Shown piece by piece: positions 22,523 through 46,963 of a stretch of DNA of 64,000 nucleotides. The translations under genes and the position numbers were made by a program. Every line of letters starts with the position of its first letter. The stretch's first letter is position 1. Below the pieces are notes generated by a model. That model saw only the letters and a program-made list of their open reading frames with translations. It was not told where the DNA came from and ran no database searches. The stretch comes from a virus. Taxonomy: Duplodnaviria > Heunggongvirae > Uroviricota > Caudoviricetes. The stretch lies in the IMG/VR virus record IMGVR_UViG_3300031555_007106; one strand, written 5' to 3'.

Positions 22523-22768
22523 TTAATGTAAATATTTTCTGTAATAGTCCATAGCGTCCTCGACTGTTTCAAACAGGTCATCTACATCGTCAGGTTCATC
22601 AGGTATGAACCCCGTTCTGCGGTCAATGATGCAATAGCCGAAGAAATATGTGCTATTAGGTTTTTCTTTCTTAAACTCTTCGAAATTATCGTAAATGTCG
22701 CCGTAGTTACCATTTTCTAATTCTTCTGCAACAACTACAGTAATTTCATACTTGTCATTAATCTTCAT
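22523..22768 (-). CDS. hypothetical protein (81 aa); tandem paralog of the N-terminal half of 22800..23300
   Basis: MKINDKYEITVVVAEELENGNYGDIYDNFEEFKKEKPNSTYFFGYCIID vs MKVDERYEITPVVVECLPDGNAGSIYVDFHKFKLDKPNSEYFFAFCVVD. Confidence 0.6.
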   Translation of the reverse strand: MKINDKYEITVVVAEELENGNYGDIYDNFEEFKKEKPNSTYFFGYCIIDRRTGFIPDEPDDVDDLFETVEDAMDYYRKYLH

Positions 22769-22799
22769 AGTTTTAATTCCCTTTCTTAAATAATTTCAA

Positions 22800-23300
22800 T
22801 TAACCCATTGGTCCATAACTTTGATTTTCAATTCTTGCCAACTTTAAACGCATCTCATACGCTTCTTGGTCTCTTTCGTTCATCCTTTTCCGAAGACTAT
22901 CTCTATCTTCTATCAAAGCATAGATATGCTGAACAGCTCTTCTTAAACCATCAACATTAGCAGGTAAAAGACCTATCGGAGACTGAACGTATTTTAAAGA
23001 TTCATCATTTTTCGCCGTCGATGAAAAAGGAAATTCATCGTTCACCTCAATATCGCTGAAACCCATCAATACGTGAAGACGATAATCATTCATAGCATCG
23101 TCAAGCGTTTCATTCCATTTGTTACAGTTGTCAGGGATATATCCTGTTTCTGTATCGACAACGCAAAAAGCGAAGAAATATTCACTATTTGGCTTATCAA
23201 GCTTGAATTTATGAAAATCCACATAAATACTCCCCGCATTTCCATCGGGAAGACATTCGACAACAACAGGTGTAATTTCATATCTTTCATCAACTTTCAT
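22800..23300 (-). CDS. hypothetical protein (166 aa); first gene after cassette 2
   Basis: ORF track. AAAGGAAA RBS from cassette. Confidence 0.65.
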   Translation of the reverse strand: MKVDERYEITPVVVECLPDGNAGSIYVDFHKFKLDKPNSEYFFAFCVVDTETGYIPDNCNKWNETLDDAMNDYRLHVLMGFSDIEVNDEFPFSSTAKNDESLKYVQSPIGLLPANVDGLRRAVQHIYALIEDRDSLRKRMNERDQEAYEMRLKLARIENQSYGPMG

Positions 23301-23441
23301 AATATTTTCCTTTCATTAATAAAAATAATAGCAATCTATAACTCCAGTCGTCATAAAATAATTGCTACTAATAGTATGATAAAGTTTGCGTAAAACAAAA
23401 AAGCCCGCCGAAGCGAGCCTTTTTTTCTTTGTTATTGCTTA
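23301..23441 (-). repeat. terminator-promoter-RBS cassette copy 2 (UUCG-loop terminator variant; 3-nt shorter spacer)
   Basis: aaaaataatagcaatctataactccagtcgtcataaaataattgctactaatagtatgataaagtttgcgtaaaacaaaaaagcccgccgaagcgagcc... Confidence 0.85.
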
Positions 23442-23918
23442 TTAACCAAACGATTCAACCCGAACATAATTAGGGACGACATCAACATCTAACTCTGCAA
23501 AGTATTTTTTGAAAATTTCGCAAAGTTTTTCTTCAGTTAAGTTCTTTTCAGTTTCGTTCATATACCATGGATGTGTTTCAGGATGCATAATAGCCCAATC
23601 ATATTCCGAACGAACTTCATCAATAAAGACTCCTGTTTCTTTTCTCATGATGTAAGCAATTACGGAATAAAACGAACCGCAACCTGATATATCATATTCA
23701 TCTTCAGCTTCAACATATCCGTCTAACCAATCAGAAAATTCTTCGTTTTCTTCATTCAGATTTTCGATATCAAATCCTTCAGATTCGGCCTTTTCCAGCA
23801 TTTTCTTATAATCTTCCGGTAAATGTTTTTCATAGAAACGTAAAAAAGCCTTAAGTTCTACGCATATTACGTTTATATCAACGCCGTATCCATAGGTAAT
23901 ACTTGTCTGCATACTCAT
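23442..23918 (-). CDS. acidic hypothetical protein (158 aa)
   Basis: ORF track. Stop codon inside cassette-2 TAATAA motif. Confidence 0.65.
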   Translation of the reverse strand: MSMQTSITYGYGVDINVICVELKAFLRFYEKHLPEDYKKMLEKAESEGFDIENLNEENEEFSDWLDGYVEAEDEYDISGCGSFYSVIAYIMRKETGVFIDEVRSEYDWAIMHPETHPWYMNETEKNLTEEKLCEIFKKYFAELDVDVVPNYVRVESFG

Positions 23919-23939
23919 AATTAGATTTTCCTTTCTTTA

Positions 23940-24434
23940 TCATAAGTTAATCTTCTTTAAAACTTCTTCACGCGGAATATCAAGCATATAACTAATAGCA
24001 TTAATCGTATGCGTTCTGAGACTAAACTCTTTTGGCTCTTCTTTCTGTGTAATGATAGTAGAGTAAGCATTGAACTGAAAAGCCCCTTCATATTCAAGGG
24101 TTTCAATTACACATACCTCCCCATCAGCAAGAAGACTTTGAAGCTCTCTATATAAACGTTCCATAGAATGTTCAACGTCATCTTCTTCGTCTTCATCACA
24201 GTCTGGTTCAGGAACCAATTCGTTATCAGCATTAATTCTCACGCCTAAAAGGTCTCCGGCAGAAAATGATACAAAACCATTTTCTATACAGAATGAAACG
24301 TCGTCATTGCAATCCGCAAGACACGACATTAAAAAACGAAATCTTTCTTCGTCATTTACCTTAAAACGATTAGTTCTTATCACCGACACAAAATGTCCTC
24401 GTGAAAAATCCTCGTAATTCTTAAATTCCTGCAT
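23940..24434 (-). CDS. hypothetical protein (164 aa)
   Basis: ORF track. Confidence 0.65.
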   Translation of the reverse strand: MQEFKNYEDFSRGHFVSVIRTNRFKVNDEERFRFLMSCLADCNDDVSFCIENGFVSFSAGDLLGVRINADNELVPEPDCDEDEEDDVEHSMERLYRELQSLLADGEVCVIETLEYEGAFQFNAYSTIITQKEEPKEFSLRTHTINAISYMLDIPREEVLKKINL

Positions 24435-24452
24435 ATAATCATTTCCCTTTCT

Positions 24453-24656
24453 TTACTTTTCCGGATAAACCGGAAACATTTTGCAACTTATCCACTTTTC
24501 TGCAAGTTCTTCAACAGATAAACTCTTTATGAACTCTGCACACTTAAGTTTAGCTTCTTTTTCGGGAAGAACTTCATTCGAAACGACACTTATTCGCATT
24601 TCAAATTCCTTAGCCTCATCTATGTACGGAATAGGGTTGATATACTTAATTGCCAT
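24453..24656 (-). CDS. hypothetical protein (67 aa)
   Basis: ORF in array. Confidence 0.5.
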   Translation of the reverse strand: MAIKYINPIPYIDEAKEFEMRISVVSNEVLPEKEAKLKCAEFIKSLSVEELAEKWISCKMFPVYPEK

Positions 24657-25186: not shown

Positions 25187-25873
25187 TTACTTAATGGGAG
25201 TACATTTTGCACCGACGTTTTCACACATCTCAGCGAACTGACAGATATGATAAATATTCCCGTTAATCTCTACGTGACAGCTGGCAATGTAACGACAAAC
25301 CATTTCCTTTGGAGGGTCGCCGGGACGTTCATAGAGAATCTTTTCTCCGTCTGATATACGAAACAGCTCATCATACTGAGAAGTAATAAAACGGATGCCG
25401 CTTTCTGCATTACGCATGTGCTTTTCCAGAGAATTACGTTTATAACAGAAGAAGTACATATTGTAATCCCCGCCTTCGGGAACAAAACGCATAAGATATG
25501 TATAATCATCTGTTATTACCGCCATTCCGCACTCCTTACCAAAATTTCCATCAATACAATAGTCAGGGTTTTCCGCGATAAAGCAGCCGATTGCACTCAC
25601 TTTCTTGAACATCTCCGCGAACATTTCATTCTTTTTCAGAGATTCGATAACTTCGTCAAATTCATCTGCAAACTTGTCAAATTCAGTCGCAGCACCTGAA
25701 GAAGAATTATTAGAGCTTTCGTTAAGCCATGAATGCTGAAAAGCCTCGAAAGAAGAGTCGGACAAATATCCTCTGAGATAACCGATGTAACCCGTCTGAC
25801 CGCATATCTGACCGCTCTGACGGTAGCTGTACTTAACTTCTTCCTTTTCCATAGGTCTTACTGTCATATTCAT
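25187..25873 (-). CDS. hypothetical protein (228 aa)
   Basis: ORF track. Confidence 0.65.
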   Translation of the reverse strand: MNMTVRPMEKEEVKYSYRQSGQICGQTGYIGYLRGYLSDSSFEAFQHSWLNESSNNSSSGAATEFDKFADEFDEVIESLKKNEMFAEMFKKVSAIGCFIAENPDYCIDGNFGKECGMAVITDDYTYLMRFVPEGGDYNMYFFCYKRNSLEKHMRNAESGIRFITSQYDELFRISDGEKILYERPGDPPKEMVCRYIASCHVEINGNIYHICQFAEMCENVGAKCTPIK

Positions 25874-25922: not shown

Positions 25923-26342
25923 TTAATCAATCACTCTCGCCCAATTAGGGTTATTTTCATCGAAATCAACCATATCTGCTATTGTAGCCTCAATAGCATT
26001 CTCCATAAATGGAAATGTCTCTTCACCTGCGCAAGACTGATAATTGTGGTAAACTTCGTTACAAAATACCTTTTTGCCGTTTTCGGAAAGATTTTCGTAA
26101 AAAGCTTTGAATTTCTGATTTGCGCAAAGATAATCACTTATACACTCATCAAAATATGCCATTTCAAGCATATTGAATGTACTTGCAACTGACCCGGAAT
26201 AATTTTTTCTTACTCTCACGAGTCTTTCAATAAGAAGGTCAAGAGCATCCGCGTCATCTCTGGTTATTCCTTCGCTTTTCGTTATGGCTACAATAGCAAA
26301 CGCTAAATCATCCATTTTTCCTATTAAGTCTTTTGAAAACAT
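25923..26342 (-). CDS. hypothetical protein (139 aa)
   Basis: ORF track. Confidence 0.6.
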   Translation of the reverse strand: MFSKDLIGKMDDLAFAIVAITKSEGITRDDADALDLLIERLVRVRKNYSGSVASTFNMLEMAYFDECISDYLCANQKFKAFYENLSENGKKVFCNEVYHNYQSCAGEETFPFMENAIEATIADMVDFDENNPNWARVID

Positions 26343-26357: not shown

Positions 26358-26633
26358 TCAAATCATTTCGTTGCCAAGATATTCATCAATGATATTTTCC
26401 CACTGGTCATTGTCAGCGACGTTACAATCGTGGTCATTTCTGAAAATCTTAGCAAAACTTTCGTATTCATCTTCTGTAATTGATGACAGAATTCGATATT
26501 CATCTGAATCATGTTCATAGCGGTCTAAATAATCCGCAACTTGTCTCTTAGCATCTTCAATCAGATATTCGAGCTCTTTTATGCGGTAAATCTGTTCCTT
26601 CTCTGTTTCTGTAAGCTTAGTAACATCAATCAT
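26358..26633 (-). CDS. very acidic small protein (91 aa)
   Basis: ORF track. D/E-rich. Confidence 0.55.
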   Translation of the reverse strand: MIDVTKLTETEKEQIYRIKELEYLIEDAKRQVADYLDRYEHDSDEYRILSSITEDEYESFAKIFRNDHDCNVADNDQWENIIDEYLGNEMI

Positions 26634-27051
26634 CGTAGTCGTCTCCTTTCATATCACACATAGCTTCGTTTACAGCGCGTTCTATCTCCTCATAATCATC
26701 CATTCGGTCAGCACCGTAATAGTTGTCGTACACAGAAGAAAGAAAATACATTTTTTCTTCGTCTGACAAAGAGTTATAGAATTCACAGCTTCTCTCCTCT
26801 GGATGTAAAATACGATTCATGATTCTTCGTTCAAGGAGAACTTCTTCGCATACACCTGCAAGGTCACCAAAACCGGCCTTGAATCCATAACCTAAGATTA
26901 CTCTTACAAGTCCTTCGAAAGCCTCTTTTTCTTCCTTATCCATGGCAGATTCCATAGGAGACTTTTTGCTTAATTCCGACAAAGCCATTACAATTTTCTT
27001 GTATTCGGCAATTCGGAAATTCTTATTAATTTCGTTTGCATTCTTATTCAT
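26626..27051 (-). CDS. acidic hypothetical protein (141 aa)
   Basis: ORF track. 8-nt overlap with next gene. Confidence 0.6.
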   Translation of the reverse strand: MNKNANEINKNFRIAEYKKIVMALSELSKKSPMESAMDKEEKEAFEGLVRVILGYGFKAGFGDLAGVCEEVLLERRIMNRILHPEERSCEFYNSLSDEEKMYFLSSVYDNYYGADRMDDYEEIERAVNEAMCDMKGDDYDD

Positions 27052-28865: not shown

Positions 28866-28919
28866 TTTTCTTTTCCTTTCTGCTTATCCGTTTCTGTCAA
28901 CGAATTTTCTGTTATCGTT

Positions 28920-29588
28920 TCAATAAATCACTTTTTCAACCATATTGTATGTAATATTGGGATTGAATTTGAAGAATATACCTAAAGCTTCGTTCTTCGA
29001 CCATGCGTAAGTCACGAATTCATAATTCTTATTGTTTATTGTAAAACGAATTTTATATTCTCGACATATGTTTAAATGTTTCGGGTCGTAATCGTGCGTT
29101 ATATCGTACCAATAAATGACACCGTCGTCATCTTCGGATTTGTTGTATTTTTCTAACTCAGGATACTTATTTACCATTTTTCGGTAATTATACTCTTCGA
29201 TAATAGGCATACGACCATAATAAGAGTTTCCTATATATTCATTTTTGAGGTCAATTTCATACCTTGCGTAGTGTTCTACTGTTAAATTGTAGATGAATAT
29301 TTTTATCGTTCTCCACTTACGCAATATGTTTATCTGCGTTGTTAAATCGCAATCGATATAATCATCACAAACCCATCCCCTTTTATCGCAATAAATATAG
29401 CCTAGAAGTGCAAGTTTTTCTGTACCATCTTCTGAAAGTTCTATATTCAAACGAGCCTCAACAAATCCTATACGGTACTTAGCAATAGTAAAAACAGGAA
29501 TTTCTACATTGTGTAATTCATGAGACTCCCAAATCTCGCGAATTGCATCGCTTTCTTCATGACAAAAATTGTCTTTCTTTTTTTTCAT
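28920..29588 (-). CDS. hypothetical protein (222 aa); N-terminal ~110-aa domain paralogous to 38907..39794
   Basis: YRIGFVEARLNIELSEDGTEKLALLGY...GWVCDDYIDCDLT vs YRIGFIQGELMIENSEDGSEKITLFGY...GWCPDDYIDYDLT. Confidence 0.65.
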   Translation of the reverse strand: MKKKKDNFCHEESDAIREIWESHELHNVEIPVFTIAKYRIGFVEARLNIELSEDGTEKLALLGYIYCDKRGWVCDDYIDCDLTTQINILRKWRTIKIFIYNLTVEHYARYEIDLKNEYIGNSYYGRMPIIEEYNYRKMVNKYPELEKYNKSEDDDGVIYWYDITHDYDPKHLNICREYKIRFTINNKNYEFVTYAWSKNEALGIFFKFNPNITYNMVEKVIY

Positions 29589-29602
29589 AGATTTTTCCTT
29601 TC

Positions 29603-36282: not shown

Positions 36283-36567
36283 TTACACTTTTGCAATTTC
36301 AACAACATCAGATTTTAATTTTCTGCGAATATCCATCTTATTCAAAGCATACATTTCGATAACGCCATTGTGTTTAGTTTTAACACAATACTTATTCATA
36401 CACTCGTAATAAGGAATAGTCCAGCCCGACTGTTTAAAAACAGGTTCGGTTGTGGCAATATGCAATTCTTTTAATGGTTCTTCATTGCCATTATACCAAG
36501 CTTTTATAGCTTGTGGAATTCTCGATTTTAAAACCGTTTCAATTCCTTCTGTTTTGCATTGAGTCAT
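36283..36567 (-). CDS. hypothetical protein (94 aa)
   Basis: ORF track. Confidence 0.55.
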   Translation of the reverse strand: MTQCKTEGIETVLKSRIPQAIKAWYNGNEEPLKELHIATTEPVFKQSGWTIPYYECMNKYCVKTKHNGVIEMYALNKMDIRRKLKSDVVEIAKV

Positions 36568-37369: not shown

Positions 37370-37566
37370 AATTTTATTCCTTTCTCTTTTAAAACTTTTT
37401 CTATCTCTTCTCTATTTGTGCAGAAGAGATTTTTGCTGTCAATCCAATACGCTTTAGGAGTTTTCTTCAGGAACTCTATCATTCTTTCACTTAGATATTC
37501 CTCCTCAAAGAATATTATTCGATAACCATGAAAATAGCGTTTATCCTGCACTCTTACAATAGTCAT
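37366..37566 (-). CDS. hypothetical protein (66 aa)
   Basis: ORF in array. 4-nt overlap. Confidence 0.5.
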   Translation of the reverse strand: MTIVRVQDKRYFHGYRIIFFEEEYLSERMIEFLKKTPKAYWIDSKNLFCTNREEIEKVLKEKGIKL

Positions 37567-37840
37567 CTGTCTTCTCCGTTTTTCTCAACCATTCCATATG
37601 TGCTTCCATTTCTGCAATATACTGTTCTTCCGAAACAGGTTCGTCATCTTCAGCTAATGCTTCGCAACATCCTCTTGCAGGACAATAAGAGCAATCAAAC
37701 CATTCGATGCAGTGGAAGTTACCATCTTCATCATACGCAGATTTAACATCCTCTTCGCTGCCTAAAACAGCCTGTAGGTTGTAATATCTGTCATCTTCTT
37801 CTCTGCCTTCATATTCGGCATTAAGCTGTTCGATAGTCAT
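37541..37840 (-). CDS. Cys-rich small protein (99 aa); tandem paralog of 37864..38058
   Basis: NLQAVLGSEED...DEDGNFHCIEWFDCSYCPARGCCE vs NYQAVLGTEAE...DENGNFHCINWFNCCYCPARNHCE. Confidence 0.55.
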   Translation of the reverse strand: MTIEQLNAEYEGREEDDRYYNLQAVLGSEEDVKSAYDEDGNFHCIEWFDCSYCPARGCCEALAEDDEPVSEEQYIAEMEAHMEWLRKTEKTDDYCKSAG

Positions 37841-37863: not shown

Positions 37864-38058
37864 TTAGGGTTCACAATGGTTACGTGCAGGACAATAACAG
37901 CAATTAAACCAATTAATACAGTGGAAATTGCCATTTTCATCAAATGCTGCCGCTCCTTCTGCTTCAGTTCCAAGTACAGCCTGATAATTAAGATAATCTT
38001 TTTCAGGGACTTTTCCTTCTGCATATGCTCGTTCAAGCTCCTCAATTGTAAGATACAT
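37864..38058 (-). CDS. Cys-rich small protein (64 aa); first gene after cassette 6
   Basis: ORF 37864..38115 starts inside the cassette. Start moved to MYLTIEELERAY after AAAGGAAG RBS. Confidence 0.5.
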   Translation of the reverse strand: MYLTIEELERAYAEGKVPEKDYLNYQAVLGTEAEGAAAFDENGNFHCINWFNCCYCPARNHCEP

Positions 38059-38202
38059 TATTACGCTTCCTTTCATTAATAAAATAATAGCAATCTTTAA
38101 GACTCCAGTCGTCAATAAATAATTGCTACTAATAGTATGATGAAAAAGGTATAAAACAAAAAAAAGCCCGCCGTAGCGAGCTTTTCTGTTATTGCTATTA
38201 CA
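38059..38202 (-). repeat. terminator-promoter-RBS cassette copy 6
   Basis: taaaataatagcaatctttaagactccagtcgtcaataaataattgctactaatagtatgatgaaaaaggtataaaacaaaaaaaagcccgccgtagcgagc... Confidence 0.85.
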
Positions 38203-38906: not shown

Positions 38907-39794
38907 TTAATAATTTTCATCAACATACGGATACGCCTTATCGGTATCAATACCATATTCTTTAAGCTTAGAAAGCATAAACTCCGTTACTTCTTTGCCG
39001 ATTTCAAGCACTTCATCTTCGTCAAGCTGTTCTGATGTTGCAGAATGAGATAAAAATGTGGTCACGAACTCTTCGGAAGTATTGTCGATTTCATCCCAGT
39101 AAGCCATATTAGCCTTTTTGTCGAGAGTCTCATCATCTTCCTCAGAGATTAAAGTAATCTTCTTACGAGCCAAAGCAATGTGTTCGGCTGCCTCTGGTAT
39201 TTCCTTAAGGATAACATCTTCCGTAATAGAATCGGGAAAGGTTGTTAAAAAATAAACAATATCTTCTACGTTTTTTTCTCTCAATTCAGCAGCAGCAAGA
39301 CTCTGGAATCCGTTGTTATGAAAAGCATTATCGCAATGATTGAAATTATCATCATTGAAATTCATATACAGTTTATACCATATATCCTTTTCGGCCATAT
39401 ACTTATCATATTCTTCACGAACAGGTAAATATCCGCGATAAACATTATCCATATCAGTATCGCGGCAATCAATGCCGAGCTTCCAGTAGTGTTCCTGAAT
39501 CACATTATAGAGAAACACCTTTATTGCATTCCAGCACTTCAACTTCTTGATTTCATCCGTTAAATCGTAATCAATATAATCATCGGGACACCAACCGCTG
39601 TTTTTCTGGTTTACATAACCGAATAACGTAATCTTTTCAGAACCATCCTCTGAATTTTCAATCATAAGTTCACCCTGAATAAAACCGATACGATATGTAG
39701 CTATGACTACATGGTCTCCGAATTCTCTGTTTTCCCAAAGATGACGAATAAGGTAGTTATCTTCATGCCAAAACTTTTCTATTCTTTTACCCAT
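38907..39794 (-). CDS. hypothetical protein (295 aa); paralog (N-terminal domain) of 28920..29588
   Basis: ORF track. See 28920..29588. Confidence 0.65.
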   Translation of the reverse strand: MGKRIEKFWHEDNYLIRHLWENREFGDHVVIATYRIGFIQGELMIENSEDGSEKITLFGYVNQKNSGWCPDDYIDYDLTDEIKKLKCWNAIKVFLYNVIQEHYWKLGIDCRDTDMDNVYRGYLPVREEYDKYMAEKDIWYKLYMNFNDDNFNHCDNAFHNNGFQSLAAAELREKNVEDIVYFLTTFPDSITEDVILKEIPEAAEHIALARKKITLISEEDDETLDKKANMAYWDEIDNTSEEFVTTFLSHSATSEQLDEDEVLEIGKEVTEFMLSKLKEYGIDTDKAYPYVDENY

Positions 39795-39808
39795 AATGAT
39801 TTCCTTTC

Positions 39809-40150: not shown

Positions 40151-40168
40151 TCATTTGCTCCTTCGTTA

Positions 40169-40351
40169 TTACTTTTTCATTTTCTTGACAACCTTAACGC
40201 TGTCACGTTTGAAATTTCCACCGCCATATTTATGATTGGAACGAACATATTCCAGTCCCTTTTTTACAGCATCTTCTTTGTTTTCAGCCATAATTTCAAA
40301 ATGTACATCACCGGCAAAAAAGCCGGTGACGGACATTAAATACTTATTCAT
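40169..40351 (-). CDS. small basic protein (60 aa)
   Basis: ORF in array. Confidence 0.45.
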   Translation of the reverse strand: MNKYLMSVTGFFAGDVHFEIMAENKEDAVKKGLEYVRSNHKYGGGNFKRDSVKVVKKMKK

Positions 40352-40377
40352 TATTTTTCCTTTCTTAACAGCAAATT

Positions 40378-41103
40378 TTACATCAAATCGTATCTTCTGC
40401 GAATTTCCTCAGTAATTTCAATACGTAGATTACAAAGCTGCTCATAGTAACCTGTTTCACTTGGATTCGCAAATTTATATTCGTGAACCTTTTTACAAGC
40501 TTTAAGATGTTCTACAGCAACTCCATTCGATAAGTATTTTTCAGGACATTCTATCAACCTTTTAGGCGTTCCAACAAAAACATAAACATATCTTTTTGTT
40601 TTATCTCTTCCAAGATAAATGTATGTAGAACGCCACGGTGATGAACCAGAAAAATACACTGCTCCCGCAATCAAGTCTTTTGCCTTTACGAAGGAAAATC
40701 CTGCATTTTTATCAGAGGATTCGTATGTGATAGCAAATGGTTCAAGTTTTTCTTTTTCTCGGTCAATGAACGTTGAAAATTCTTCTGTATAGTCAGCCCA
40801 AACCATTCTTATTTTAGGTTTTGACGTATAAGAACAAATAAAATCGACATCCCAAGCTGAGTGAAGAAGCTGTTTAATAAGCCCGTTTAAGAATTCGCTC
40901 TGCTCCTTCTGATGAACAATTCTAACTTCGTTGAAATCGCTGTTCTCTAATCCGCATCGAGCCAAAGTATAGAATACCGTTTCATCACGATTGTTGCGAC
41001 CCAGATACATTCTGAGCCAACCGTCACGCCACATATATACCTTACCCTGCACATATGCTTCAGTAATATATCCTCCGTCAAGAGGGAAACGTAAATCATC
41101 CAT
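40378..41103 (-). CDS. hypothetical protein (241 aa)
   Basis: ORF track. Confidence 0.65.
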   Translation of the reverse strand: MDDLRFPLDGGYITEAYVQGKVYMWRDGWLRMYLGRNNRDETVFYTLARCGLENSDFNEVRIVHQKEQSEFLNGLIKQLLHSAWDVDFICSYTSKPKIRMVWADYTEEFSTFIDREKEKLEPFAITYESSDKNAGFSFVKAKDLIAGAVYFSGSSPWRSTYIYLGRDKTKRYVYVFVGTPKRLIECPEKYLSNGVAVEHLKACKKVHEYKFANPSETGYYEQLCNLRIEITEEIRRRYDLM

Positions 41104-41129
41104 TCTTTTTCTCCTTGTAGTGTTTTACT

Positions 41130-41441
41130 TTAATAAATGCTCCATCCTTCGTTATCTTCAACAAGATACTCCAGTTCTCTCCAAATCTGAGACGAAATAT
41201 CCTTAATTTCAGGGTGTTTAGAAACACATTCCCAAATTTGTTTGGTTTCTTCTGCTGTAAACTCACCATAAATGTTGTTAAACCATTTTACGAGAGTTTC
41301 ATTTGTTCCTTCAGGGAAAACAAATTCAAGAGCTTTAATGTGTTCCTTTTTGATTCCTCCGAAAACCTCGGCTACCGCACATACCTCGCTATTAAAGCGA
41401 GGATAGCTTGCGGAACCTGCGTAATAATAATCCATTCCCAT
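41130..41441 (-). CDS. hypothetical protein (103 aa)
   Basis: ORF track. Confidence 0.55.
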   Translation of the reverse strand: MGMDYYYAGSASYPRFNSEVCAVAEVFGGIKKEHIKALEFVFPEGTNETLVKWFNNIYGEFTAEETKQIWECVSKHPEIKDISSQIWRELEYLVEDNEGWSIY

Positions 41442-41455
41442 AGTTTCACCCTTTC

Positions 41456-41650
41456 TTACTTATGAAAATTTTTTCCGCTCCACTCACAAGCCATCTTTCT
41501 CTTTAAAAGGGGTATGTATGAGTGATTGATGGCGTTTCCTATTTTAACAATCAGAACAAATTCAAACGCAATGAGGTAAATTCGTAACACTTTAAAAAAA
41601 GGTAAACCGTCATCCCAAAGCCATGCTCCGTATCTTTCAATATAAAACAT
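41456..41650 (-). CDS. small hydrophobic protein (64 aa)
   Basis: ORF 41456..41689. Start moved to MFYIERYG (Met14) after AAGAAAGGAAAA RBS. Confidence 0.45.
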   Translation of the reverse strand: MFYIERYGAWLWDDGLPFFKVLRIYLIAFEFVLIVKIGNAINHSYIPLLKRKMACEWSGKNFHK

Positions 41651-41664
41651 AAAGTTTTCCTTTC

Positions 41665-42081
41665 TTATAATCTTGATAATACCTGACAAAGATAGTCATC
41701 AATCTTAAAATGTTCGGGAATATACGACTTACCCTTATCAGTTACAAACATTGAAATTCCAAAATGTGTGTTTTTATCACAAGAAAACTGACTTTCATAC
41801 ACATTGTAATCTTCAAGCCAAAATATAACATTTTTATTTGTTTCTTCTTCTGAAAGAGGATAACGTACACATTCTGTATTCTCTTCAAATGTTTTATTGC
41901 TTTCTTCAACGTAAAAAAGGCCATCTTTTTCGAAAAGAACAAAAACTAATACTGCAGTATCAGTCGGCTTGCCATATTCTTCGGTGTGAATATATGTAAG
42001 CAGCACATCCTTAGGTTCTAAACCTAAAGCATCCCATTCCTTTTTCGATAAAAGTTCTTCTTTTGTGATTTGTCGTTTCAT
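41665..42081 (-). CDS. hypothetical protein (138 aa)
   Basis: ORF track. Confidence 0.6.
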   Translation of the reverse strand: MKRQITKEELLSKKEWDALGLEPKDVLLTYIHTEEYGKPTDTAVLVFVLFEKDGLFYVEESNKTFEENTECVRYPLSEEETNKNVIFWLEDYNVYESQFSCDKNTHFGISMFVTDKGKSYIPEHFKIDDYLCQVLSRL

Positions 42082-42093
42082 TGTTCATTCTCC

Positions 42094-42402
42094 TTAATTT
42101 AATTCGTAATTTTCTCTAAGCTCGGGAATAACTTCGTCAGTAAGCCCCACCTTGTCATATAAATCCATAAGCTTATCGTGGTCTTCTTCCCAGTAGTTGC
42201 CTTCTAAATCTTCCCACATAACGATTCCATCATATATTGTAGAAGACTGCTCCTTTGTAAAACAGCCGTTTTCAACACAGAATTCAAGAAATTCTTCAAA
42301 GCAGTAATCGCAGGCTATTTCGTAAGCTTCAGGAAGCTTCGATTTAGGTAAAGGCTGAACCAGATGCATAACTCTTTCAAAACAAGTTACTGGACAGTTC
42401 AT
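42094..42402 (-). CDS. hypothetical protein (102 aa)
   Basis: ORF track. Confidence 0.55.
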   Translation of the reverse strand: MNCPVTCFERVMHLVQPLPKSKLPEAYEIACDYCFEEFLEFCVENGCFTKEQSSTIYDGIVMWEDLEGNYWEEDHDKLMDLYDKVGLTDEVIPELRENYELN

Positions 42403-42647
42403 ACGTTCACCCCGCTTTCCTTTATAAGCTCACGAATCTTGAGCGTTCCGATGACACAAATGTGTTCTATAAACTCGGAAATGCGAAGCATATAAGGTTC
42501 ATTGTCGATAACCAGATAAATATCGCCGCAATGTAATGCGCCGTTAGAGCTCATTGTGATTGACGGGATAGAGATTATGCAAAAGTCTCTTCCATCGTCA
42601 AGAATTCCCGTTACGCCTTCCTTGATTTCAAAAAATAATTCGTTCAT
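42399..42647 (-). CDS. hypothetical protein (82 aa)
   Basis: ORF track. 4-nt overlap. Confidence 0.5.
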   Translation of the reverse strand: MNELFFEIKEGVTGILDDGRDFCIISIPSITMSSNGALHCGDIYLVIDNEPYMLRISEFIEHICVIGTLKIRELIKESGVNV

Positions 42648-42662
42648 GTTATTTTATTCCTT

Positions 42663-43049
42663 TCATTCATAAAATTCGTTGTTTATTGCATCCGCAATAA
42701 AATGTGTTATTATTAATCCTATTCCAACACAAATGATGATAACAGCCACCGCTGGAATAGTATTAAATATACAAAGCTTGACATAAAAACCGATGAAGAA
42801 TAGCACCACAGCCTTAGTTGATACTTTGCAAAACTCAAAAAGCTTTGTGTACTTTTGATACTTTTCTTCGTTCCACTGCAAAATTGTGCAGCTCATAGCA
42901 TATCCCCAAATACAGAAAGCTCCGATAAATACGGCAGCATTTTCAGCAGGCGTAAAAAGTTTCAAAAAACTTATGTCTGCTAAAGCAAGGATAAAACCAA
43001 ACAGAAACATTCTTGAAAAAAGTTCTGCATATCTTATGATTTTTCGCAT
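42663..43049 (-). CDS. integral membrane protein (128 aa, ~4 TM)
   Basis: ORF track. Hydrophobic. Confidence 0.55.
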   Translation of the reverse strand: MRKIIRYAELFSRMFLFGFILALADISFLKLFTPAENAAVFIGAFCIWGYAMSCTILQWNEEKYQKYTKLFEFCKVSTKAVVLFFIGFYVKLCIFNTIPAVAVIIICVGIGLIITHFIADAINNEFYE

Positions 43050-43060
43050 TTGTATACTCC

Positions 43061-43390
43061 TTACTTTGTAATTTCTACGTCACAGCCAATAAAATAGCTC
43101 ACAAGACGCATTGTTGTTCCCTTAGGAATTTCATTATGCTTCTTGATGTGGCGGATAGCTGCTCTCACACTTCTTATCTTGTGATTAACACTGAATAAAG
43201 AAATATTGTTTCCGGAATTGTCTCGTTCTGACATGGGAATCCACTTATTCAGCTCAGGACACCAATCAAGATAATGATTATCGACATTCTCAAGTCCTCC
43301 AAAAATAGGAGTTCTGTTTTCGTGATGAGGAACCTTAACGGTTCCCTTCATCACACGATGTCCCTTGCTTCTTAAAAACTTCACCTTCAT
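43061..43390 (-). CDS. basic hypothetical protein (109 aa)
   Basis: ORF track. Confidence 0.55.
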   Translation of the reverse strand: MKVKFLRSKGHRVMKGTVKVPHHENRTPIFGGLENVDNHYLDWCPELNKWIPMSERDNSGNNISLFSVNHKIRSVRAAIRHIKKHNEIPKGTTMRLVSYFIGCDVEITK

Positions 43391-43419
43391 AACTATTTTC
43401 CTTTCTTTTCAGCCTCAAT

Positions 43420-43953
43420 TCAATCGAGGGTTATCTCCTTACCTTCTTCGTTGTAGGTCAATCGGGTAACAACGAAATATTCTCCGTTTCTGCGTTCAAT
43501 CTTTGTAAGAGTTCCGTTATCAAAGTCATAATCGATATATTTAGTGACGTTTTTTTCTTTTTCACCAAAACCGGAATGAACAATCGCGGGTCTGAAATTC
43601 TTACTGTCGTGACGACGCTCAAACCATCTCCCCTGCTTATCAAGCTCTTCGAAACGAGCACAAATATTCTTCTGAACAAGATTAGCTGTCGCTTCATGTT
43701 TGAAAATCTTAATACGTCTCACAAAACCCTCTGAATTATACACGTCAACTGCATACTCTTCAGTTATAAGGCCCATAATACGCATATAAGTTCTCTTTGG
43801 AAGGCCTGTTTCTTTACAGATAACATTGATAAACTCTTCGTTATCAATATCCATACATTCAAATGCATGATGTGTATTGTTCACCATAAGAATGAATGCC
43901 TTTAACACATCAGCACATTTTTCTTCTTCCATTTCTTTTAACAACCAATTCAT
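43420..43953 (-). CDS. hypothetical protein (177 aa); first gene after cassette 7
   Basis: ORF track. Confidence 0.6.
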   Translation of the reverse strand: MNWLLKEMEEEKCADVLKAFILMVNNTHHAFECMDIDNEEFINVICKETGLPKRTYMRIMGLITEEYAVDVYNSEGFVRRIKIFKHEATANLVQKNICARFEELDKQGRWFERRHDSKNFRPAIVHSGFGEKEKNVTKYIDYDFDNGTLTKIERRNGEYFVVTRLTYNEEGKEITLD

Positions 43954-44092
43954 AATTTAATTCCTTTCATAATAAAAATAATAGCAATTCTTTAAAAACT
44001 CCAATCGTCATAAAATAATTGCTACTAATAGTATGATAAAGTTTGCGTAAAACAAAAAAGCCCGCCGTAGCGAGCCTTTTTTGTTATTGCTA
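43954..44092 (-). repeat. terminator-promoter-RBS cassette copy 7 (near-identical to copy 2)
   Basis: ...ataatagcaattctttaaaaactccaatcgtcataaaataattgctactaatagtatgataaagtttgcgtaaaacaaaaaagcccgccgtagcgagcc... Confidence 0.85.
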
Positions 44093-45435: not shown

Positions 45436-45454
45436 AATATTTTTTCCTTTCTTT

Positions 45455-45790
45455 TTAAAGTTTATCAACGTCGTATACGTGCATTAAATTGAAGGTGTCA
45501 TCATCATAGGTTACGCGTGAAGATGCACTATCTTCATTAATGAAGAAGTTTAATCCGCCAGCTTCTTCGGCCCAATTAAGAAATTCAATTGTTAATCCCT
45601 TTTCTTCAAGTTCTTTATAAGAGAAATTTTCGGGCAATCCTGACATTTCGGCGAATTCAGATACATCGCCAACTCCAGCTAAGTAATTTTCAATAGTTGT
45701 TTCAACCATGAAATTTACGGCTTCGTCGAATGTTTCTGCTTTTGATGGAGTATATTCTCCATCACCTGTTACATTTGTGATAATATACAT
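45455..45790 (-). CDS. acidic hypothetical protein (111 aa)
   Basis: ORF 45455..45808. Start moved to MYIITNVTG after AAAGGAAGAA RBS. Confidence 0.55.
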   Translation of the reverse strand: MYIITNVTGDGEYTPSKAETFDEAVNFMVETTIENYLAGVGDVSEFAEMSGLPENFSYKELEEKGLTIEFLNWAEEAGGLNFFINEDSASSRVTYDDDTFNLMHVYDVDKL

Positions 45791-45807
45791 ATTGGTTCTT
45801 CCTTTCA

Positions 45808-46011
45808 TTAAAATTGACTTGACTTTGTTCTTGTTTTATTCTCTTCGTGTTCATACACAAGTCTCGCAAAGACTTCAGGTGATACGAGGTGCTTAAGCAC
45901 CTCTGTATCCACTTCAATGCGATGAAACGTGTTGTCAAGATGATTAAAACCGCATTCAATACAAGTACCACAAGCAAAACCTATACGGTTAAGACAAATT
46001 GGACATTCCAT
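45808..46011 (-). CDS. Zn-ribbon small protein (67 aa; CPICLN...CGTCIECG)
   Basis: ORF track. Confidence 0.5.
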   Translation of the reverse strand: MECPICLNRIGFACGTCIECGFNHLDNTFHRIEVDTEVLKHLVSPEVFARLVYEHEENKTRTKSSQF

Positions 46012-46039
46012 CTTTTTTCTCCTTTATCAAATATTTCTT

Positions 46040-46666
46040 TCACCAACTATAAGTCGAAAGACTTTCAACTTCGCAACCATCGCAGTCGAGACAAAGCCAA
46101 TCACAGTTATTTTCCTTAGCCAGCTTAATGCAAGCTCTTAAATCTTCGGGAAGACGTGCAATAGTCTCGGTGTCAATATCACACCATATCCAATAGCCGT
46201 AGTCTTCTTTGTCGTACACAGACAAACCCATGACGCCACACCAGTTTGGTTCGCATAACTTCTCGTTTGTTTCTTCTGTAATATGTGATGTCGCAATTGT
46301 TAAGCATCTGGTGATGTCAAGATTACATTTCTTACCTGCTTCCTGCGTTTCCTTATTTCTTGAACCCTTGCTATATGTAAAGGTTTCAAGCTTTTTCATT
46401 AAGGAAATACTCAAATTTGCCGGACTCCATACATTTACGAATTCGCCATTTATAAGCTTAGCACGAATGAAAGTTAGACCGATTTCAAGACTCTCAATTG
46501 AAGGCACTAAAGCAAGTAAATTGTTTGCTTTAGCCTTTTCTTCATCATCCAGCCCACTATTGTTCACAACATAGAACAATGCGTCGGTTACTTCCTGTAC
46601 ATCACGTTCAACTGCGTATTTTTTTATCATATTAGGATTTGAACTAAAATCTTCGTAAATAATCAT
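46040..46666 (-). CDS. hypothetical protein (208 aa); N-terminal domain paralogous to adjacent 46670..46963
   Basis: MIIYEDFSSNP...EVTDAL...LALVPSIESLEIGLTFIRAKLINGEFVNV vs MIIYDVYGSFP...EVYTAL...IAWLPNIACINAEKEDVEVIFTNGESVEV. Confidence 0.6.
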   Translation of the reverse strand: MIIYEDFSSNPNMIKKYAVERDVQEVTDALFYVVNNSGLDDEEKAKANNLLALVPSIESLEIGLTFIRAKLINGEFVNVWSPANLSISLMKKLETFTYSKGSRNKETQEAGKKCNLDITRCLTIATSHITEETNEKLCEPNWCGVMGLSVYDKEDYGYWIWCDIDTETIARLPEDLRACIKLAKENNCDWLCLDCDGCEVESLSTYSW

Positions 46667-46669
46667 ACT

Positions 46670-46963
46670 TTATTCCTTTCTTATTGTATAATTTATCAGA
46701 GCGTCGCATAAATCGCGGACAATTCCCACGTTTTCTACTTCAACACTTTCACCGTTAGTGAAGATTACTTCAACATCCTCTTTCTCTGCATTAATGCATG
46801 CGATATTAGGAAGCCAAGCAATTAAGGTTGTTATTTTCTTCTTATTAGCACGCTGAAAGCCTGAAAGACCTATCAGTGCTGTATAGACTTCTGATATAGA
46901 ACAATTTGCAAAATACTCTTCATTATCTTCCGGGAAACTACCATATACATCGTAAATAATCAT
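46670..46963 (-). CDS. hypothetical protein (97 aa); tandem paralog of 46040..46666
   Basis: ORF track. Confidence 0.55.
   Translation of the reverse strand: MIIYDVYGSFPEDNEEYFANCSISEVYTALIGLSGFQRANKKKITTLIAWLPNIACINAEKEDVEVIFTNGESVEVENVGIVRDLCDALINYTIRKE

What the first reader, a model, noticed from the sequence alone, without database searches (positions are those of the whole stretch)
22523..46963. Several paralog families, including three adjacent tandem duplicates, inside the ORFan array
Adjacent pairs are 22523..22768 / 22800..23300, 37541..37840 / 37864..38058 (CxxWFxCxYCPAR module) and 46040..46666 / 46670..46963. Dispersed pairs are 28920..29588 / 38907..39794 (shared 110-aa N-domain) and 15060..15695 / 19740..20576 (shared SPxFLQxAKxxG...IYxYL domain in different positions). 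Internal duplications occur in 17673..18008 and 62846..63892. Local duplication plus domain shuffling of small proteins is the signature of genes under diversifying or arms-race selection, for example anti-defence or superinfection-exclusion families.
Basis: seen in the sequence. Interest (0 to 1): 0.6.

Follow-up and report, generated by a model that had tools for sequence, protein, structure and literature searches.

The report
Old paralogs in mobile-element gene array
The repeated small genes are real but ancient duplicates, kept under ordinary purifying selection inside a very long array of unknown small acidic proteins on what is most likely a ~193-kb conjugative element of ruminant-gut Clostridia; nothing measured here shows an arms race.

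Summary
Observation confirmed. All five protein pairs and both internal duplications are statistically real. I found three further pairs. One apparent similarity ("MTTGVLKNCYYF" N-termini) is an artefact of a translated intergenic DNA repeat.

The shared unit is always a 50-130-aa module. One copy is usually short. The other carries extra modules, for example DUF5983 on 46040-46666 and two extra modules on 38907-39794.

The duplications are old. Synonymous sites between paralogs are saturated, and both copies of families B and D are kept in related elements. Ortholog dN/dS is 0.09-0.22 for B1, B2 and D2, like the neighbours (0.02-0.34). Gene-wide diversifying selection is therefore not supported. 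What does turn over is gene content and alleles.

Context: at least 127 same-strand small genes, median 117 aa and pI 4.8, about 92% without a Pfam hit. At least 12 copies of one terminator-promoter-inverted-repeat cassette punctuate the array. It includes two orphan DNA methyltransferases.

A closely related array runs directly into ParB, a C5 methylase, DUF3801 and a T4SS coupling protein. Several modules recur in polyvalent proteins of Oscillospiraceae/Ruminococcus conjugative elements.

An anti-defence or establishment role is plausible but inferred only. No known anti-defence family was detected.

The parts
22523..22768 (-). Family A, short copy (81 aa, pI 4.2). The whole protein is the shared domain.
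   Evidence: 49% identity over 80 aa to 22800-23300, E 1e-23. No Pfam or PHROG hit.
22800..23300 (-). Family A, long copy (166 aa): shared N-terminal 77 aa plus a ~90-aa C-terminal extension. It is the first gene after promoter cassette c23292.
   Evidence: No relative in IMG/VR.
37541..37840 (-). Family B1 (99 aa, pI 4.1): ~60-aa domain ending in the His/Cys knuckle FHCIxWF[DN]Cx[YF]CPA, plus a 37-aa acidic tail. The tail is absent from the 62-aa orthologs in L010-L012.
   Evidence: 56% over 61 aa to B2, E 1e-21. Alignments. Ortholog dN/dS 0.09-0.15.
37864..38058 (-). Family B2 (64 aa): domain only. It is the first gene after cassette c38056. The longer ORF reaching 38115 is an artefact.
   Evidence: Ortholog dN/dS 0.16-0.17. 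The family is single-copy in the distant elements L015-L017.
46670..46963 (-). Family C, short copy (97 aa).
   Evidence: 30% over 79 aa to 46040-46666. Smith-Waterman z = 9.8, 0 of 2000 shuffles. This is the weakest pair.
46040..46666 (-). Family C, long copy (208 aa): shared N-terminal ~80 aa plus a C-terminal DUF5983 domain (aa 121-208).
   Evidence: PF19419, E 1.8e-20, 73.5 bits against a cutoff of 27. phrog_5003, 3.9e-7.
28920..29588 (-). Family D1 (222 aa): module 1 (aa 1-120) plus a unique C-terminal half.
   Evidence: 44% over 134 aa to D2, E 6e-33. Ortholog in L010 is 95% identical.
38907..39794 (-). Family D2 (295 aa): module 1 (aa 1-116), module 2 (~120-210) and module 3 (~220-295).
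   Evidence: The profile search splits it into three independently distributed modules. Module 3 is fused elsewhere to YodL, LPD28, DUF3848 and NT5C. In the AlphaFold model module 1 is 4 antiparallel strands plus helices at pLDDT ~75, and the rest is low confidence. dN/dS 0.13-0.22.
15060..15695 (-). Family E1 (211 aa): Cys-rich N-terminus, with the shared 63-aa domain at aa 81-143.
   Evidence: 40% over 63 aa to 19740-20576, E 3e-9. phmmer 1.3e-10.
19740..20576 (-). Family E2 (278 aa): shared domain at aa 9-69, followed by a long C-terminal part with a Cys cluster.
25923..26342 (-). It shares a C-terminal ~50 aa (FY..LS...K..F...VY.NY).
   Evidence: phmmer 8.1e-6. Smith-Waterman z = 7.4, 0 of 2000 shuffles.
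26626..27051 (-). Family F2 (141 aa), separated from F1 by one gene.
17673..18008 (-). 111-aa protein made of two ~45-aa Cys-containing units (..ADD.K...W..YC..CG..C...I.I.F...EA).
   Evidence: Internal alignment z = 13.4, 0 of 2000 shuffles.
62846..63892 (-). 348-aa protein with two copies of a ~100-aa unit (3 helices, 4 strands, 1 helix) joined by a helical linker. It is a solo version of a segment found inside 2000-2650-aa polyvalent proteins.
   Evidence: Internal z = 22. AlphaFold pLDDT 85.9, pTM 0.82. No PDB or BFVD fold match. Homologs carry YodL or LPD16 domains or adjoin DUF8437 and DUF3849 genes, and lie in Oscillospiraceae/Ruminococcus elements.
36283..36567 (-). 94-aa gene with a 69%-identical paralog ~28 kb upstream, outside the window at window-equivalent ~64765-65064.
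   Evidence: tblastn against L004 8868-9125, E 5e-42.
58517..59239 (-). 240-aa gene with a distant (24%) paralog upstream of the window.
   Evidence: tblastn against L004 7329-7799, E 4.5e-6.
23292..23431 (-). One of 10 in-window copies of the ~140-nt terminator-promoter-inverted-repeat-RBS cassette. The others are near 16951, 27413, 33180, 36151, 38056, 43949, 49305, 51990 and 57982. It drives the operon that starts with family A.
38056..38195 (-). Cassette copy driving the operon that starts with family B.
61150..62820 (-). Context: 556-aa N6-adenine DNA methyltransferase with DUF4942. No restriction-enzyme family was detected anywhere in the array.
   Evidence: PF13708, 2e-27. Homologs on plasmids and phages.
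55920..57020 (-). Context: 366-aa N6/N4 DNA methyltransferase.
   Evidence: PF01555, 5.7e-28. PADLOC MTase_II and oMTase models hit array members; the output does not say which.

Best explanation
**What it is.** The paralogs are genuine and ancient. They are small, acidic, modular proteins in the accessory gene array of a large mobile element, on a ~193-kb metagenome contig. The element is most likely a conjugative plasmid or ICE of ruminant-gut Oscillospiraceae/Ruminococcus.

**How the pairs arose.** Each family began as a tandem (A, B, C, near-tandem F) or dispersed (D, E) duplication of a 50-130-aa module. C-terminal or N-terminal modules were then gained or lost, which left a solo copy beside a fused copy. 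The modules belong to the same shuffled domain pool that conjugative elements of Firmicutes assemble into giant polyvalent proteins. Here the pool is deployed as more than 100 separate small genes.

**Selection and expression.** Both copies are kept under purifying selection, so they are sub- or neo-functionalised rather than racing. The array is transcribed in one direction as ~2.7-10.8-kb units. Each unit starts with the same terminator-promoter-inverted-repeat cassette, which suggests coordinated control by one regulator.

**Shown versus inferred.** Shown: homology, age, purifying selection, modular architecture, cassette organisation, and the link to conjugative elements. Inferred only: that the proteins act early after transfer on host targets (establishment, counter-defence or host manipulation).
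For: **Homology and chance control.**

**Age.** Paralog pS is 0.72-0.92.

**Retention.** Both B copies are present in L002, L003 and L010-L012. Both D copies are present in L010.

**Purifying selection.** dN/dS is 0.09-0.22 for B1, B2 and D2. Neighbours give 0.02-0.34.

**Lineage-specific duplication.** Family B is single-copy in the distant arrays L015-L017, at 57-69% identity to both B1 and B2.

**Modularity.**
- D2 splits into three modules.
- Module 3 is fused to YodL (P0047), LPD28 (P0046), DUF3848 (P0089) and NT5C (P0097).
- 46040-46666 carries DUF5983.
- 62846-63892 is an internal segment of 2054-2651-aa ORFs next to 692-aa ORFs in L019, L021 and L022. The 692-aa gene upstream of a homolog in L013 has topoisomerase domains.
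- The C-terminal domain of 25187-25873 recurs in those ICE loci.

**Conjugative context.**
- The related array L011 (8 orthologs at 64-98% identity) runs into ParB_N, DUF7768, a C5 methylase, DUF3801 and a T4SS coupling protein (PF02534, 1.8e-14).
- Homolog neighbourhoods hold a VirB4-like ATPase, CD1107-like, topoisomerase, DUF3849 and YodL.
- YodL and LPD16 are reported only from polyvalent proteins of conjugative elements (PMC5512222).
- A sortase-type NPETG surface adhesin and other giant secreted proteins lie downstream.
- The proteins have no relative in IMG/VR, although the contig is a JGI metagenome contig.

**Array properties.** 105 genes, median 117 aa, median pI 4.8, 94% coding, about 8 of 105 with any Pfam hit.

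**Cassette.** 10 copies in the window plus at least 2-3 upstream.
Against: - No relaxase, oriT or T4SS gene was seen on the window's own contig. Only 79 of 193 kb could be read. The conjugative assignment rests on a close relative (L011) and on distant homologs.
- The DUF4942 methylase has homologs in phages such as SPR, a Fusobacterium phage and a Faecalibacterium phage. PHROG families, mostly of unknown function, match part of the array. A dTMP kinase is also present.
- A repeated promoter-operator element is also a hallmark of the SPbeta prophage (PMC10516654).
- No protein of families A-F matches any known anti-defence, defence, toxin or immunity model.
- dN/dS was gene-wide and pairwise. 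It used only 1-3 orthologs and was measurable only for families B and D. Site-specific positive selection is not excluded.
Confidence: 0.6

Rival explanations
1. One reading: the families are anti-defence or superinfection-exclusion genes under diversifying, arms-race selection, and recent local duplication generates variants.
For: - The setting is a mobile-element accessory array with two orphan methyltransferases.
- The proteins are small and acidic.
- Gene content turns over strongly between related arrays. L010 lacks the dTMP kinase and carries a Zeta-toxin-like gene instead of other genes. L011 replaces the array's downstream part. The distant arrays L016 and L017 share only 2 of 105 proteins.
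- dS is mosaic, from 0 to more than 0.8 between adjacent genes, which indicates allele exchange.
- Family B copy number differs between lineages.
- Leading regions of conjugative elements are enriched in anti-defence genes (PMC11541004).
Against: - dN/dS is 0.09-0.22 for B1, B2 and D2, no higher than the neighbours.
- Paralog synonymous sites are saturated, so the duplications are not recent.
- Both copies are conserved across relatives.
- No hit to any anti-defence or defence model.
- The cassette does not fold into an Frpo-like double-stranded promoter mimic.
Confidence: 0.25
2. The element is a large temperate or jumbo phage, or a phage-plasmid of the SPbeta type. The array would be its early-gene region, with paralogous host-takeover genes controlled by a master repressor that binds the repeated cassette.
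For: - A repeated regulatory element sits at about 10 promoters of unknown-function operons, as with SPBRE and MrpR in SPbeta.
- The DUF4942 methylase is 39% identical to one in Bacillus phage SPR and 43% to one in a Fusobacterium phage.
- A dTMP kinase is present, along with 40 PHROG family hits, including phrog_1934 at 1e-38 and phrog_23767 at 6e-47.
- The contig size of ~193 kb fits.
Against: - No structural, packaging or lysis gene appears in the 79 kb read.
- Array proteins have no relatives in IMG/VR or the INPHARED phages.
- A close relative of the array abuts a T4SS coupling protein and DUF3801.
- Cell-wall-anchored adhesins lie downstream.
- YodL- and LPD16-linked homologs are reported only from polyvalent proteins of conjugative elements.
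Confidence: 0.15
3. The similarities are compositional or low-complexity artefacts among acidic, AT-rich-encoded small proteins.
For: - Median pI is 4.8 and composition is biased.
- One apparent family, the MTTGVLKNCYYF N-termini, is indeed an artefact of translated repeat DNA.
- The C pair is weak, at E 3e-4.
Against: - Composition-adjusted E-values reach 1e-33.
- Shuffled proteomes give 0-1 pair at E <= 1e-3.
- Per-pair shuffles give z = 7-22.
- Specific motifs are conserved in orthologs from independent samples.
Confidence: 0.02

Closest known systems
Solo and minimal-architecture versions of polyvalent-protein domains of conjugative elements (Iyer, Burroughs, Anand, de Souza & Aravind 2017, PMC5512222)
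   Same: - Small uncharacterised modules recur solo or in shuffled fusions in Firmicutes mobile elements.
- 62846-63892 and the C-terminus of 25187-25873 occur inside or beside 2000-2650-aa polyvalent proteins.
- D2 module 3 is fused to YodL and LPD28 elsewhere.
   Different: - Here the modules are spread over more than 100 separate small genes instead of one giant polypeptide.
- Families A, B, C (N-terminal domain), E and F were not found in any polyvalent protein examined.
- None matches a named LPD Pfam model.
Anti-defence islands in the leading region of conjugative plasmids (Samuel & Burstein 2024, PMC11541004)
   Same: - A unidirectional block of small, mostly uncharacterised genes sits on a conjugative-type element.
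- It includes orphan DNA methyltransferases.
   Different: - The position relative to oriT is unknown.
- No ArdA, SSB, PsiB or Acr homolog was found.
- No Frpo-like ssDNA promoter was found.
- The array (at least 127 genes, at least 59 kb) is several times longer than the ~30-ORF zone described there.
SPbeta prophage operons of unknown-function genes preceded by the SPBRE repeat bound by the master repressor MrpR (PMC10516654)
   Same: - A conserved repeated element lies at ~10 promoters, heading operons of small unknown genes in a large mobile element of a Firmicute.
- The methyltransferase has a homolog in the phage SPR, which I recall to be SPbeta-like (memory, not checked).
   Different: - No sequence similarity to SPbeta was tested or seen.
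- The cassette here is ~140 nt and includes its own terminator and a 10-bp inverted repeat.
- No phage structural genes were seen.
- A relative carries conjugation genes.
DUF5983 (PF19419), a domain family of unknown function found downstream of cbtA toxin genes in E. coli genomes
   Same: The C-terminal 90 aa of 46040-46666 match the full model (E 1.8e-20). It is a mobilome-associated domain of unknown function, reported downstream of CbtA toxin genes (PMC10790755) and with a glyoxalase-like two-layer fold.
   Different: - Here it is fused to an N-terminal module that is duplicated as a separate adjacent gene.
- No CbtA/CbeA-like neighbours are present.

Membership tests
Gene family under diversifying (arms-race) selection | Non-synonymous rate elevated relative to synonymous rate, or relative to neighbouring genes | tested here: not met
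   NG86 dN/dS is 0.09-0.15 for B1, 0.16-0.17 for B2 and 0.13-0.22 for D2. Neighbours give 0.02-0.34. D1 gives 0.49 on 16 substitutions only. The estimates are gene-wide and pairwise, and site models were not run.
Gene family under diversifying (arms-race) selection | Recent, recurrent duplication or copy-number change among close relatives | tested here: inconclusive
   Paralog pS is 0.72-0.92, i.e. saturated. Both copies are retained in relatives. Family B is nevertheless single-copy in the three distant elements, and B1's C-terminal tail differs between relatives.
Leading-region anti-defence island of a conjugative element | Location within the first tens of ORFs on the leading side of oriT | not testable with these tools
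   No oriT or relaxase lies in the 79 kb of the contig that could be read.
Leading-region anti-defence island of a conjugative element | Genes encoded on one strand | tested here: met
   All 105 array genes in the window and 22 upstream are on one strand. GC skew is uniformly negative.
Leading-region anti-defence island of a conjugative element | Presence of recognised anti-defence genes (ArdA/B/C, Acr, SSB, PsiB, orphan MTases) | tested here: inconclusive
   Two orphan methyltransferases are present. No other known anti-defence family appears in the Pfam, NCBIfam or PADLOC scans of all 105 proteins.
Leading-region anti-defence island of a conjugative element | Frpo/ssi-type single-strand promoters, i.e. 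a long hairpin that pairs the -35 and -10 boxes | tested here: not met
   The ssDNA folds of the cassette pair the terminator stem and the ATAGCAAT repeats. They do not pair the promoter hexamers.
Conjugative element (plasmid or ICE) | T4SS coupling protein, relaxase or mating-pair genes on the element | tested here: inconclusive
   None was seen on the window's own contig. The close relative L011 has DUF3801 plus a T4SS-DNA_transf protein (1.8e-14) directly after the array.
Polyvalent-protein domain pool (Iyer et al. 2017) | The same domain occurs within multidomain polyvalent proteins of phages or conjugative elements | tested here: met
   Met for 62846-63892 (inside 2054-2651-aa ORFs) and D2 module 3 (fused to YodL and LPD28). 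The C-terminal domain of 25187-25873 lies ~2-3 kb upstream of the 62846-like segment in those loci. Not met for families A, B, C-N, E and F.
Polyvalent protein proper | 2 to 15 conflict-related domains in one polypeptide | tested here: not met
   Family members are 64-295 aa with 1-3 modules.
DUF5983 (PF19419) | Full-length match above the Pfam gathering score | tested here: met
   46040-46666 aa 121-208 match model positions 1-90 of 90, 73.5 bits against a cutoff of 27. The partner 46670-46963 lacks the domain.
Phage early-gene region | Virion, packaging or lysis genes on the same element, or recognition as viral | tested here: not met
   None was found in the 79 kb read. There are no relatives in IMG/VR and no nucleotide match in INPHARED. 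The remaining ~114 kb is unseen.

The most novel reading that the evidence does not exclude
The array would be a disaggregated polyvalent arsenal. A ~193-kb conjugative megaplasmid of ruminant-gut Oscillospiraceae would carry more than 125 small acidic effector-like proteins. They include conserved paralog pairs of solo and fused modules. All would be switched on together from at least 12 copies of one terminator-promoter-operator cassette on entry into a new host. That would be an establishment or counter-defence programme several times larger than any leading-region island described so far, made almost entirely of unnamed protein families.
Probability: 0.25. Interest if true: 0.6.

Novelty: new member of a known kind. 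Interest (0 to 1): 0.33.

Why it matters
Paralogy and module shuffling in mobile-element accessory regions are expected, so the finding as stated is ordinary.

Its value is as a map. It gives eight small families with solo and fused pairs, a Cys/His-knuckle family (B), and one confidently modelled repeat fold without a PDB match (62846-63892).

The setting is an unusually long, uniformly regulated array in an under-studied host group, the ruminant-gut Oscillospiraceae. If the array is the early-expressed part of a conjugative megaplasmid, these conserved pairs are good first candidates for functional screens of new establishment or counter-defence proteins.

The dN/dS result cautions against reading duplication alone as evidence of an arms race.

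Tried and rejected
**Database searches that found little or nothing**
- Nucleotide search of 18 kb against phage genomes: no match.
- tRNA scan: none. Rfam: none.
- Family D against plasmids by tblastn: none.
- Families D and A against IMG/VR: none.
- Family D against GTDB species representatives: none.
- Word-indexed protein search: family D found only 3 clusters, and the module-1 profile found only 1 protein. Those searches are sensitivity-limited. The exhaustive profile search was the informative one.
- PDB sequence searches for D, 46040-46666 and 62846-63892: nothing.

**Structure**
- The afdb50 library was unavailable.

**Profile searches**
- HMMs for families A, C, E, F and the 17673-18008 repeat, searched against ORFs of 94 fetched loci (the window's own contig excluded): no hits.

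**Ideas considered and rejected**
- Polymorphic-toxin immunity array: no upstream toxin, and methylases, a kinase and promoter cassettes are interspersed.
- Frpo-type promoters.
- The MTTGVLKNCYYF "family", which is translated repeat DNA.
- Metagenome gene calls of 59 aa (L002/L003) and 122 aa (L011) that looked like frameshifted or fused B genes. They are gene-calling artefacts, and tblastn shows intact B1 and B2.

Full report

The window is 35% G+C. From about 14.3 kb to its end it is one uninterrupted minus-strand array of small ORFs with uniformly negative GC skew.

I ran an all-against-all BLASTP of every ORF of at least 40 aa, pairwise alignments, and phmmer.

| Family | Members | Identity | E-value |
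|---|---|---|---|
| A | 22523-22768 / 22800-23300 | 49% over 80 aa | 1e-23 |
| B | 37541-37840 / 37864-38058 | 56% over 61 aa | 1e-21 |
| D | 28920-29588 / 38907-39794 | 44% over 134 aa | 6e-33 |
| E | 15060-15695 / 19740-20576 | 40% over 63 aa | 3e-9 |
| C | 46670-46963 / 46040-46666 | 30% over 79 aa | 3e-4 |

- In family E the shared domain sits at aa 81-143 in one protein and 9-69 in the other.
- Family C is the weakest. Its Smith-Waterman score is still 9.8 s.d. above shuffles, and 0 of 2000 shuffles reach it.
- Twenty residue-shuffled versions of the 105-protein set give 0-1 pair at E <= 1e-3, against six in the real set.
- Both internal duplications are significant: 17673-18008 z = 13.4 and 62846-63892 z = 22.

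I found three more relationships:
- 25923-26342 / 26626-27051, a shared C-terminal ~50 aa.
- 36283-36567, with a 69%-identical paralog just beyond the window end.
- 58517-59239, with a 24%-identical paralog there too.

One apparent family is false. The N-terminal "MTTGVLKNCYYF" shared by ORFs 16699-17013, 48855-49367, 37864-38115 and 33171-33299 is a translated intergenic DNA repeat.

**2. Anatomy of the families**

In A-D one copy is essentially the shared module alone or with a short tail. The other copy carries extra sequence.
- A2 adds ~90 aa.
- B1 adds a 37-aa acidic tail that is absent from its 62-aa orthologs.
- C2 adds a full DUF5983 domain (PF19419, 1.8e-20).
- D2 adds two further modules.

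An exhaustive HMMER search of 1.84 billion representative proteins with a family-D profile gave 79 hits in three non-overlapping groups:
- Module 1 (aa 1-116, the part shared with D1) occurs alone, or at the C-side of 350-450-aa proteins.
- Module 2 (aa ~120-210) occurs mostly alone.
- Module 3 (aa ~220-295) occurs as many 70-80-aa solo proteins. It also sits at the C-terminus of other proteins, where it is fused to YodL (P0047), LPD28 (P0046), DUF3848 (P0089) or NT5C (P0097).

No additional copy of these modules is hidden in the window.

Family B is a ~60-aa protein whose conserved core across nine members from six loci is QAVLG.E...A.D..G.FHCI.WF.C..CPA. This is a His/Cys knuckle that plausibly binds metal.

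All members are acidic, with pI 4.1-5.6.

**3. Age and selection**

Related arrays were recovered from other samples:
- L002 and L003, near-identical to the window.
- L012, from a Logan run.
- L010 and L011, from NCBI MAGs.

Both B genes are present in all five. Both D genes are present in L010.

Between paralogs the synonymous sites are saturated (pS 0.72-0.92), with dN 0.37-0.83. The duplications therefore long predate the divergence of these elements, whose ortholog dS is 0.02-0.8.

Pairwise Nei-Gojobori dN/dS of window genes against their orthologs:

| Gene | dN/dS |
|---|---|
| B1 | 0.09-0.15 |
| B2 | 0.16-0.17 |
| D2 | 0.13-0.22 |
| D1 | 0.49 (11 non-synonymous and 5 synonymous changes only) |
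| Neighbouring genes | 0.02-0.34 |

The families thus evolve under the same purifying selection as their neighbours.

Three things do vary:
- **Allele age.** Adjacent genes have dS from 0 to more than 0.8, and one gene is only 64% identical. This is a mosaic left by recombination.
- **Gene content.** L010 lacks the dTMP kinase and the 68-aa gene beside it, and has a Zeta-toxin-like gene elsewhere. L011 replaces everything downstream of ~36.5 kb.
- **Copy number over longer distances.** The only three further family-B loci found in 241 million metagenome records carry a single gene, 57-69% identical to both B1 and B2. Those arrays share only one other protein (DUF4314) with the window.

No orthologs were available for families A, C, E and F, so their selection regime is untested.

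**4. What the surrounding element is**

*Source contig.*
- The window comes from JGI contig Ga0307249_10001143 (193,036 bp).
- A second contig of up to ~197 kb carries the same proteins.
- The array continues at least 10 kb upstream of the window with 22 more Pfam-less genes.
- Downstream of the array lie two opposite-strand genes and a secreted transglutaminase-like protein.
- Giant secreted proteins follow. One is a 2050-aa SpaA/Cna_B protein with a signal peptide and a C-terminal NPETG, a hydrophobic segment and a charged tail, i.e. a sorting signal.

*Array composition.*
- Of the 105 array proteins in the window, about eight have any Pfam hit: DUF3268, DUF4314, DUF5983, weak DUF3848, an SPFH lipoprotein, dTMP kinase and two DNA methyltransferases.
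- None matches a known anti-defence or defence model other than methyltransferases.
- Median length is 117 aa, median pI 4.8, and coding density 94%.

*Evidence for a conjugative element.*
- In L011 the same array runs straight into a ParB_N protein, DUF7768, a C5 methylase, DUF3801 and a T4SS coupling protein (PF02534, 1.8e-14). L011 has eight orthologs at 64-98% identity to the window.
- Homologs of 62846-63892 lie in Ruminococcus, Oscillospiraceae and other Clostridia genomes, mostly MAGs from goat, sheep, deer, rabbit and human guts.
- There they form an internal segment of 2054-2651-aa ORFs next to 692-aa ORFs. The 692-aa gene upstream of one homolog (L013) has topoisomerase domains.
- Other homologs carry YodL or LPD16 domains. 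Others lie near DUF8437, DUF3849, CD1107-like and VirB4-like genes.
- YodL and LPD16 are reported only from polyvalent proteins of conjugative elements (PMC5512222).
- The array proteins are absent from IMG/VR, although the contig is a JGI metagenome contig.

*Evidence for a phage.*
- The DUF4942 methylase has phage homologs.
- There are 40 PHROG family hits and a dTMP kinase.
- The repeated promoter element resembles the SPbeta arrangement.

I put the conjugative reading at about 0.7. No relaxase or T4SS gene was seen on the window's own contig, and only 79 of its 193 kb were accessible.

**5. Expression architecture (noticed while checking the false family)**

A ~140-nt cassette occurs 10 times in the window and at least 2-3 times upstream. 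In order it holds:
- an ATAGCAAT motif;
- a GCTCGC-TTCG-GCGGGC hairpin with a T-run, which is an intrinsic terminator and shows one compensatory G-C to A-U change;
- TTGTTT, 16-17 nt, then TACTAT, a sigma-A-like promoter;
- a 10-bp inverted repeat ATAGCAATT...AATTGCTAT around an almost invariant 27-nt loop;
- a GAAAGGA ribosome-binding site, then the ATG.

It matches no Rfam family. As single-stranded DNA it does not pair the promoter hexamers, so it is not Frpo-like. It is present in the related arrays L010-L012 but not in distant ones.

The closest analogy is the SPBRE repeat bound by the MrpR master repressor at ~10 SPbeta promoters (PMC10516654).

Families A and B are the first two genes behind two of these cassettes. 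Two of three tandem pairs being promoter-proximal is suggestive, but the sample is too small to weigh.

**6. Structure**

**7. Interpretation**

*Shown.* The paralogs are real and old, built from shuffled modules, and conserved by purifying selection. They sit in a coordinately organised accessory array whose relatives are attached to conjugation genes. Some of their modules belong to the polyvalent-protein domain pool.

*Inferred.* The proteins act on host targets soon after transfer, for establishment, counter-defence or host manipulation. Solo and fused neighbours may have diverged in partner or target. I give this functional inference about 0.35.

It remains compatible with the rapid gene-content and allele turnover of the array.

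**8. Novelty and score**

Paralogous small-protein families in mobile-element accessory regions are a known kind of thing. The families themselves are unnamed and near-orphan: 3 clusters for D2 in 5.8 billion, and 3 extra loci for B in 241 million metagenome records.

The more unusual features lie outside the finding as worded. They are the length of the array, its uniform cassette regulation, and its disaggregated polyvalent character.

Interest 0.33. The most novel reading not excluded has probability 0.25 and interest 0.6 if true.

Noticed in passing
window, minus strand, copies starting near 16951, 23292, 27413, 33180, 36151, 38056, 43949, 49305, 51990, 57982; also L004 2067, 6514, ~9174: A ~140-nt cassette is repeated at least 12 times and splits the array into 2.7-10.8-kb units. 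It holds a terminator hairpin, a sigma-A-like promoter, a 10-bp inverted repeat ATAGCAATT/AATTGCTAT around an invariant 27-nt loop, and an RBS. It matches no Rfam family and is not Frpo-like. It is analogous to the SPBRE/MrpR arrangement of SPbeta.
   Followed up: partly
window 16699-17013, 48855-49367, 37864-38115, 33171-33299 (minus): ORFs that start inside the cassette acquire a false shared N-terminus, MTTGVLKNCYYF. The true starts are the internal ATG after the GAAAGGA RBS.
   Followed up: yes
window 28900-44000 versus L010, L011, L012: Synonymous divergence between orthologs is mosaic. Adjacent genes range from dS 0 to more than 0.8, and 38440-38664 is only 64% identical to its L010 counterpart. 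This indicates frequent recombination or allele replacement between related elements.
   Followed up: partly
L010 4273-4839 and 8860-9800; L011 5301-9731: Gene-block turnover between relatives. L010 lacks the dTMP kinase and the 68-aa gene beside it, and has a Zeta-toxin/AAA_33-like 188-aa gene. L011 replaces the downstream array with ParB_N, DUF7768, a C5 methylase, DUF3801 and a T4SS coupling protein.
   Followed up: partly
window 5009-11161 (minus) and L008 16420-26153: Three giant secreted proteins follow the array. One is a 2050-aa SpaA/Cna_B protein with a signal peptide and a C-terminal NPETG sorting signal. The other two are 1797 aa and 2691 aa. The 1797-aa protein and the readable 1442 aa of the 2691-aa one gave no hit in my Pfam scan, though a precomputed DUF5018 hit is on record for the latter.
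   Followed up: partly
window 12827-13708 (plus strand): These are the only two opposite-strand genes near the array end: a 123-aa membrane-like protein and a 166-aa protein. They lie in a 31% G+C stretch between the array and the surface-protein genes.
   Followed up: no
window 25187-25873 (minus): The C-terminal ~65 aa (aa 160-226) match sequence 2-3 kb upstream of the 62846-like segment in 11 ICE-type loci (Negativibacillus, Butyricicoccus, Gemmiger and others). This is another solo polyvalent-protein module.
   Followed up: partly
window 37541-37840 versus L010 2713-2901, L012 6147-6335: B1 is 99 aa in the window but 62 aa in relatives. The extra 37-aa acidic tail overlaps the next gene (37366-37566) by 26 nt, and that next gene is missing in L012.
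   Followed up: partly
L002 5897-6076, L011 2446-2814: Metagenome gene calls of 59 aa and 122 aa over the family-B pair are out-of-frame artefacts. Both B genes are intact there.
   Followed up: yes
P0028 (1717 aa), P0045 (1034 aa): Two long tandem-repeat proteins hit positions ~45-99 of the family-D profile 14-15 times each. This is probably a repeat or compositional effect and was not interpreted.
   Followed up: no
window 14381-15063 and 15060-15695 (minus): Zinc-ribbon-like CxxC proteins cluster at the array's downstream end: a DUF3268 protein, an 88-aa CxxC protein, and the Cys-rich N-terminus of family E1.
   Followed up: no
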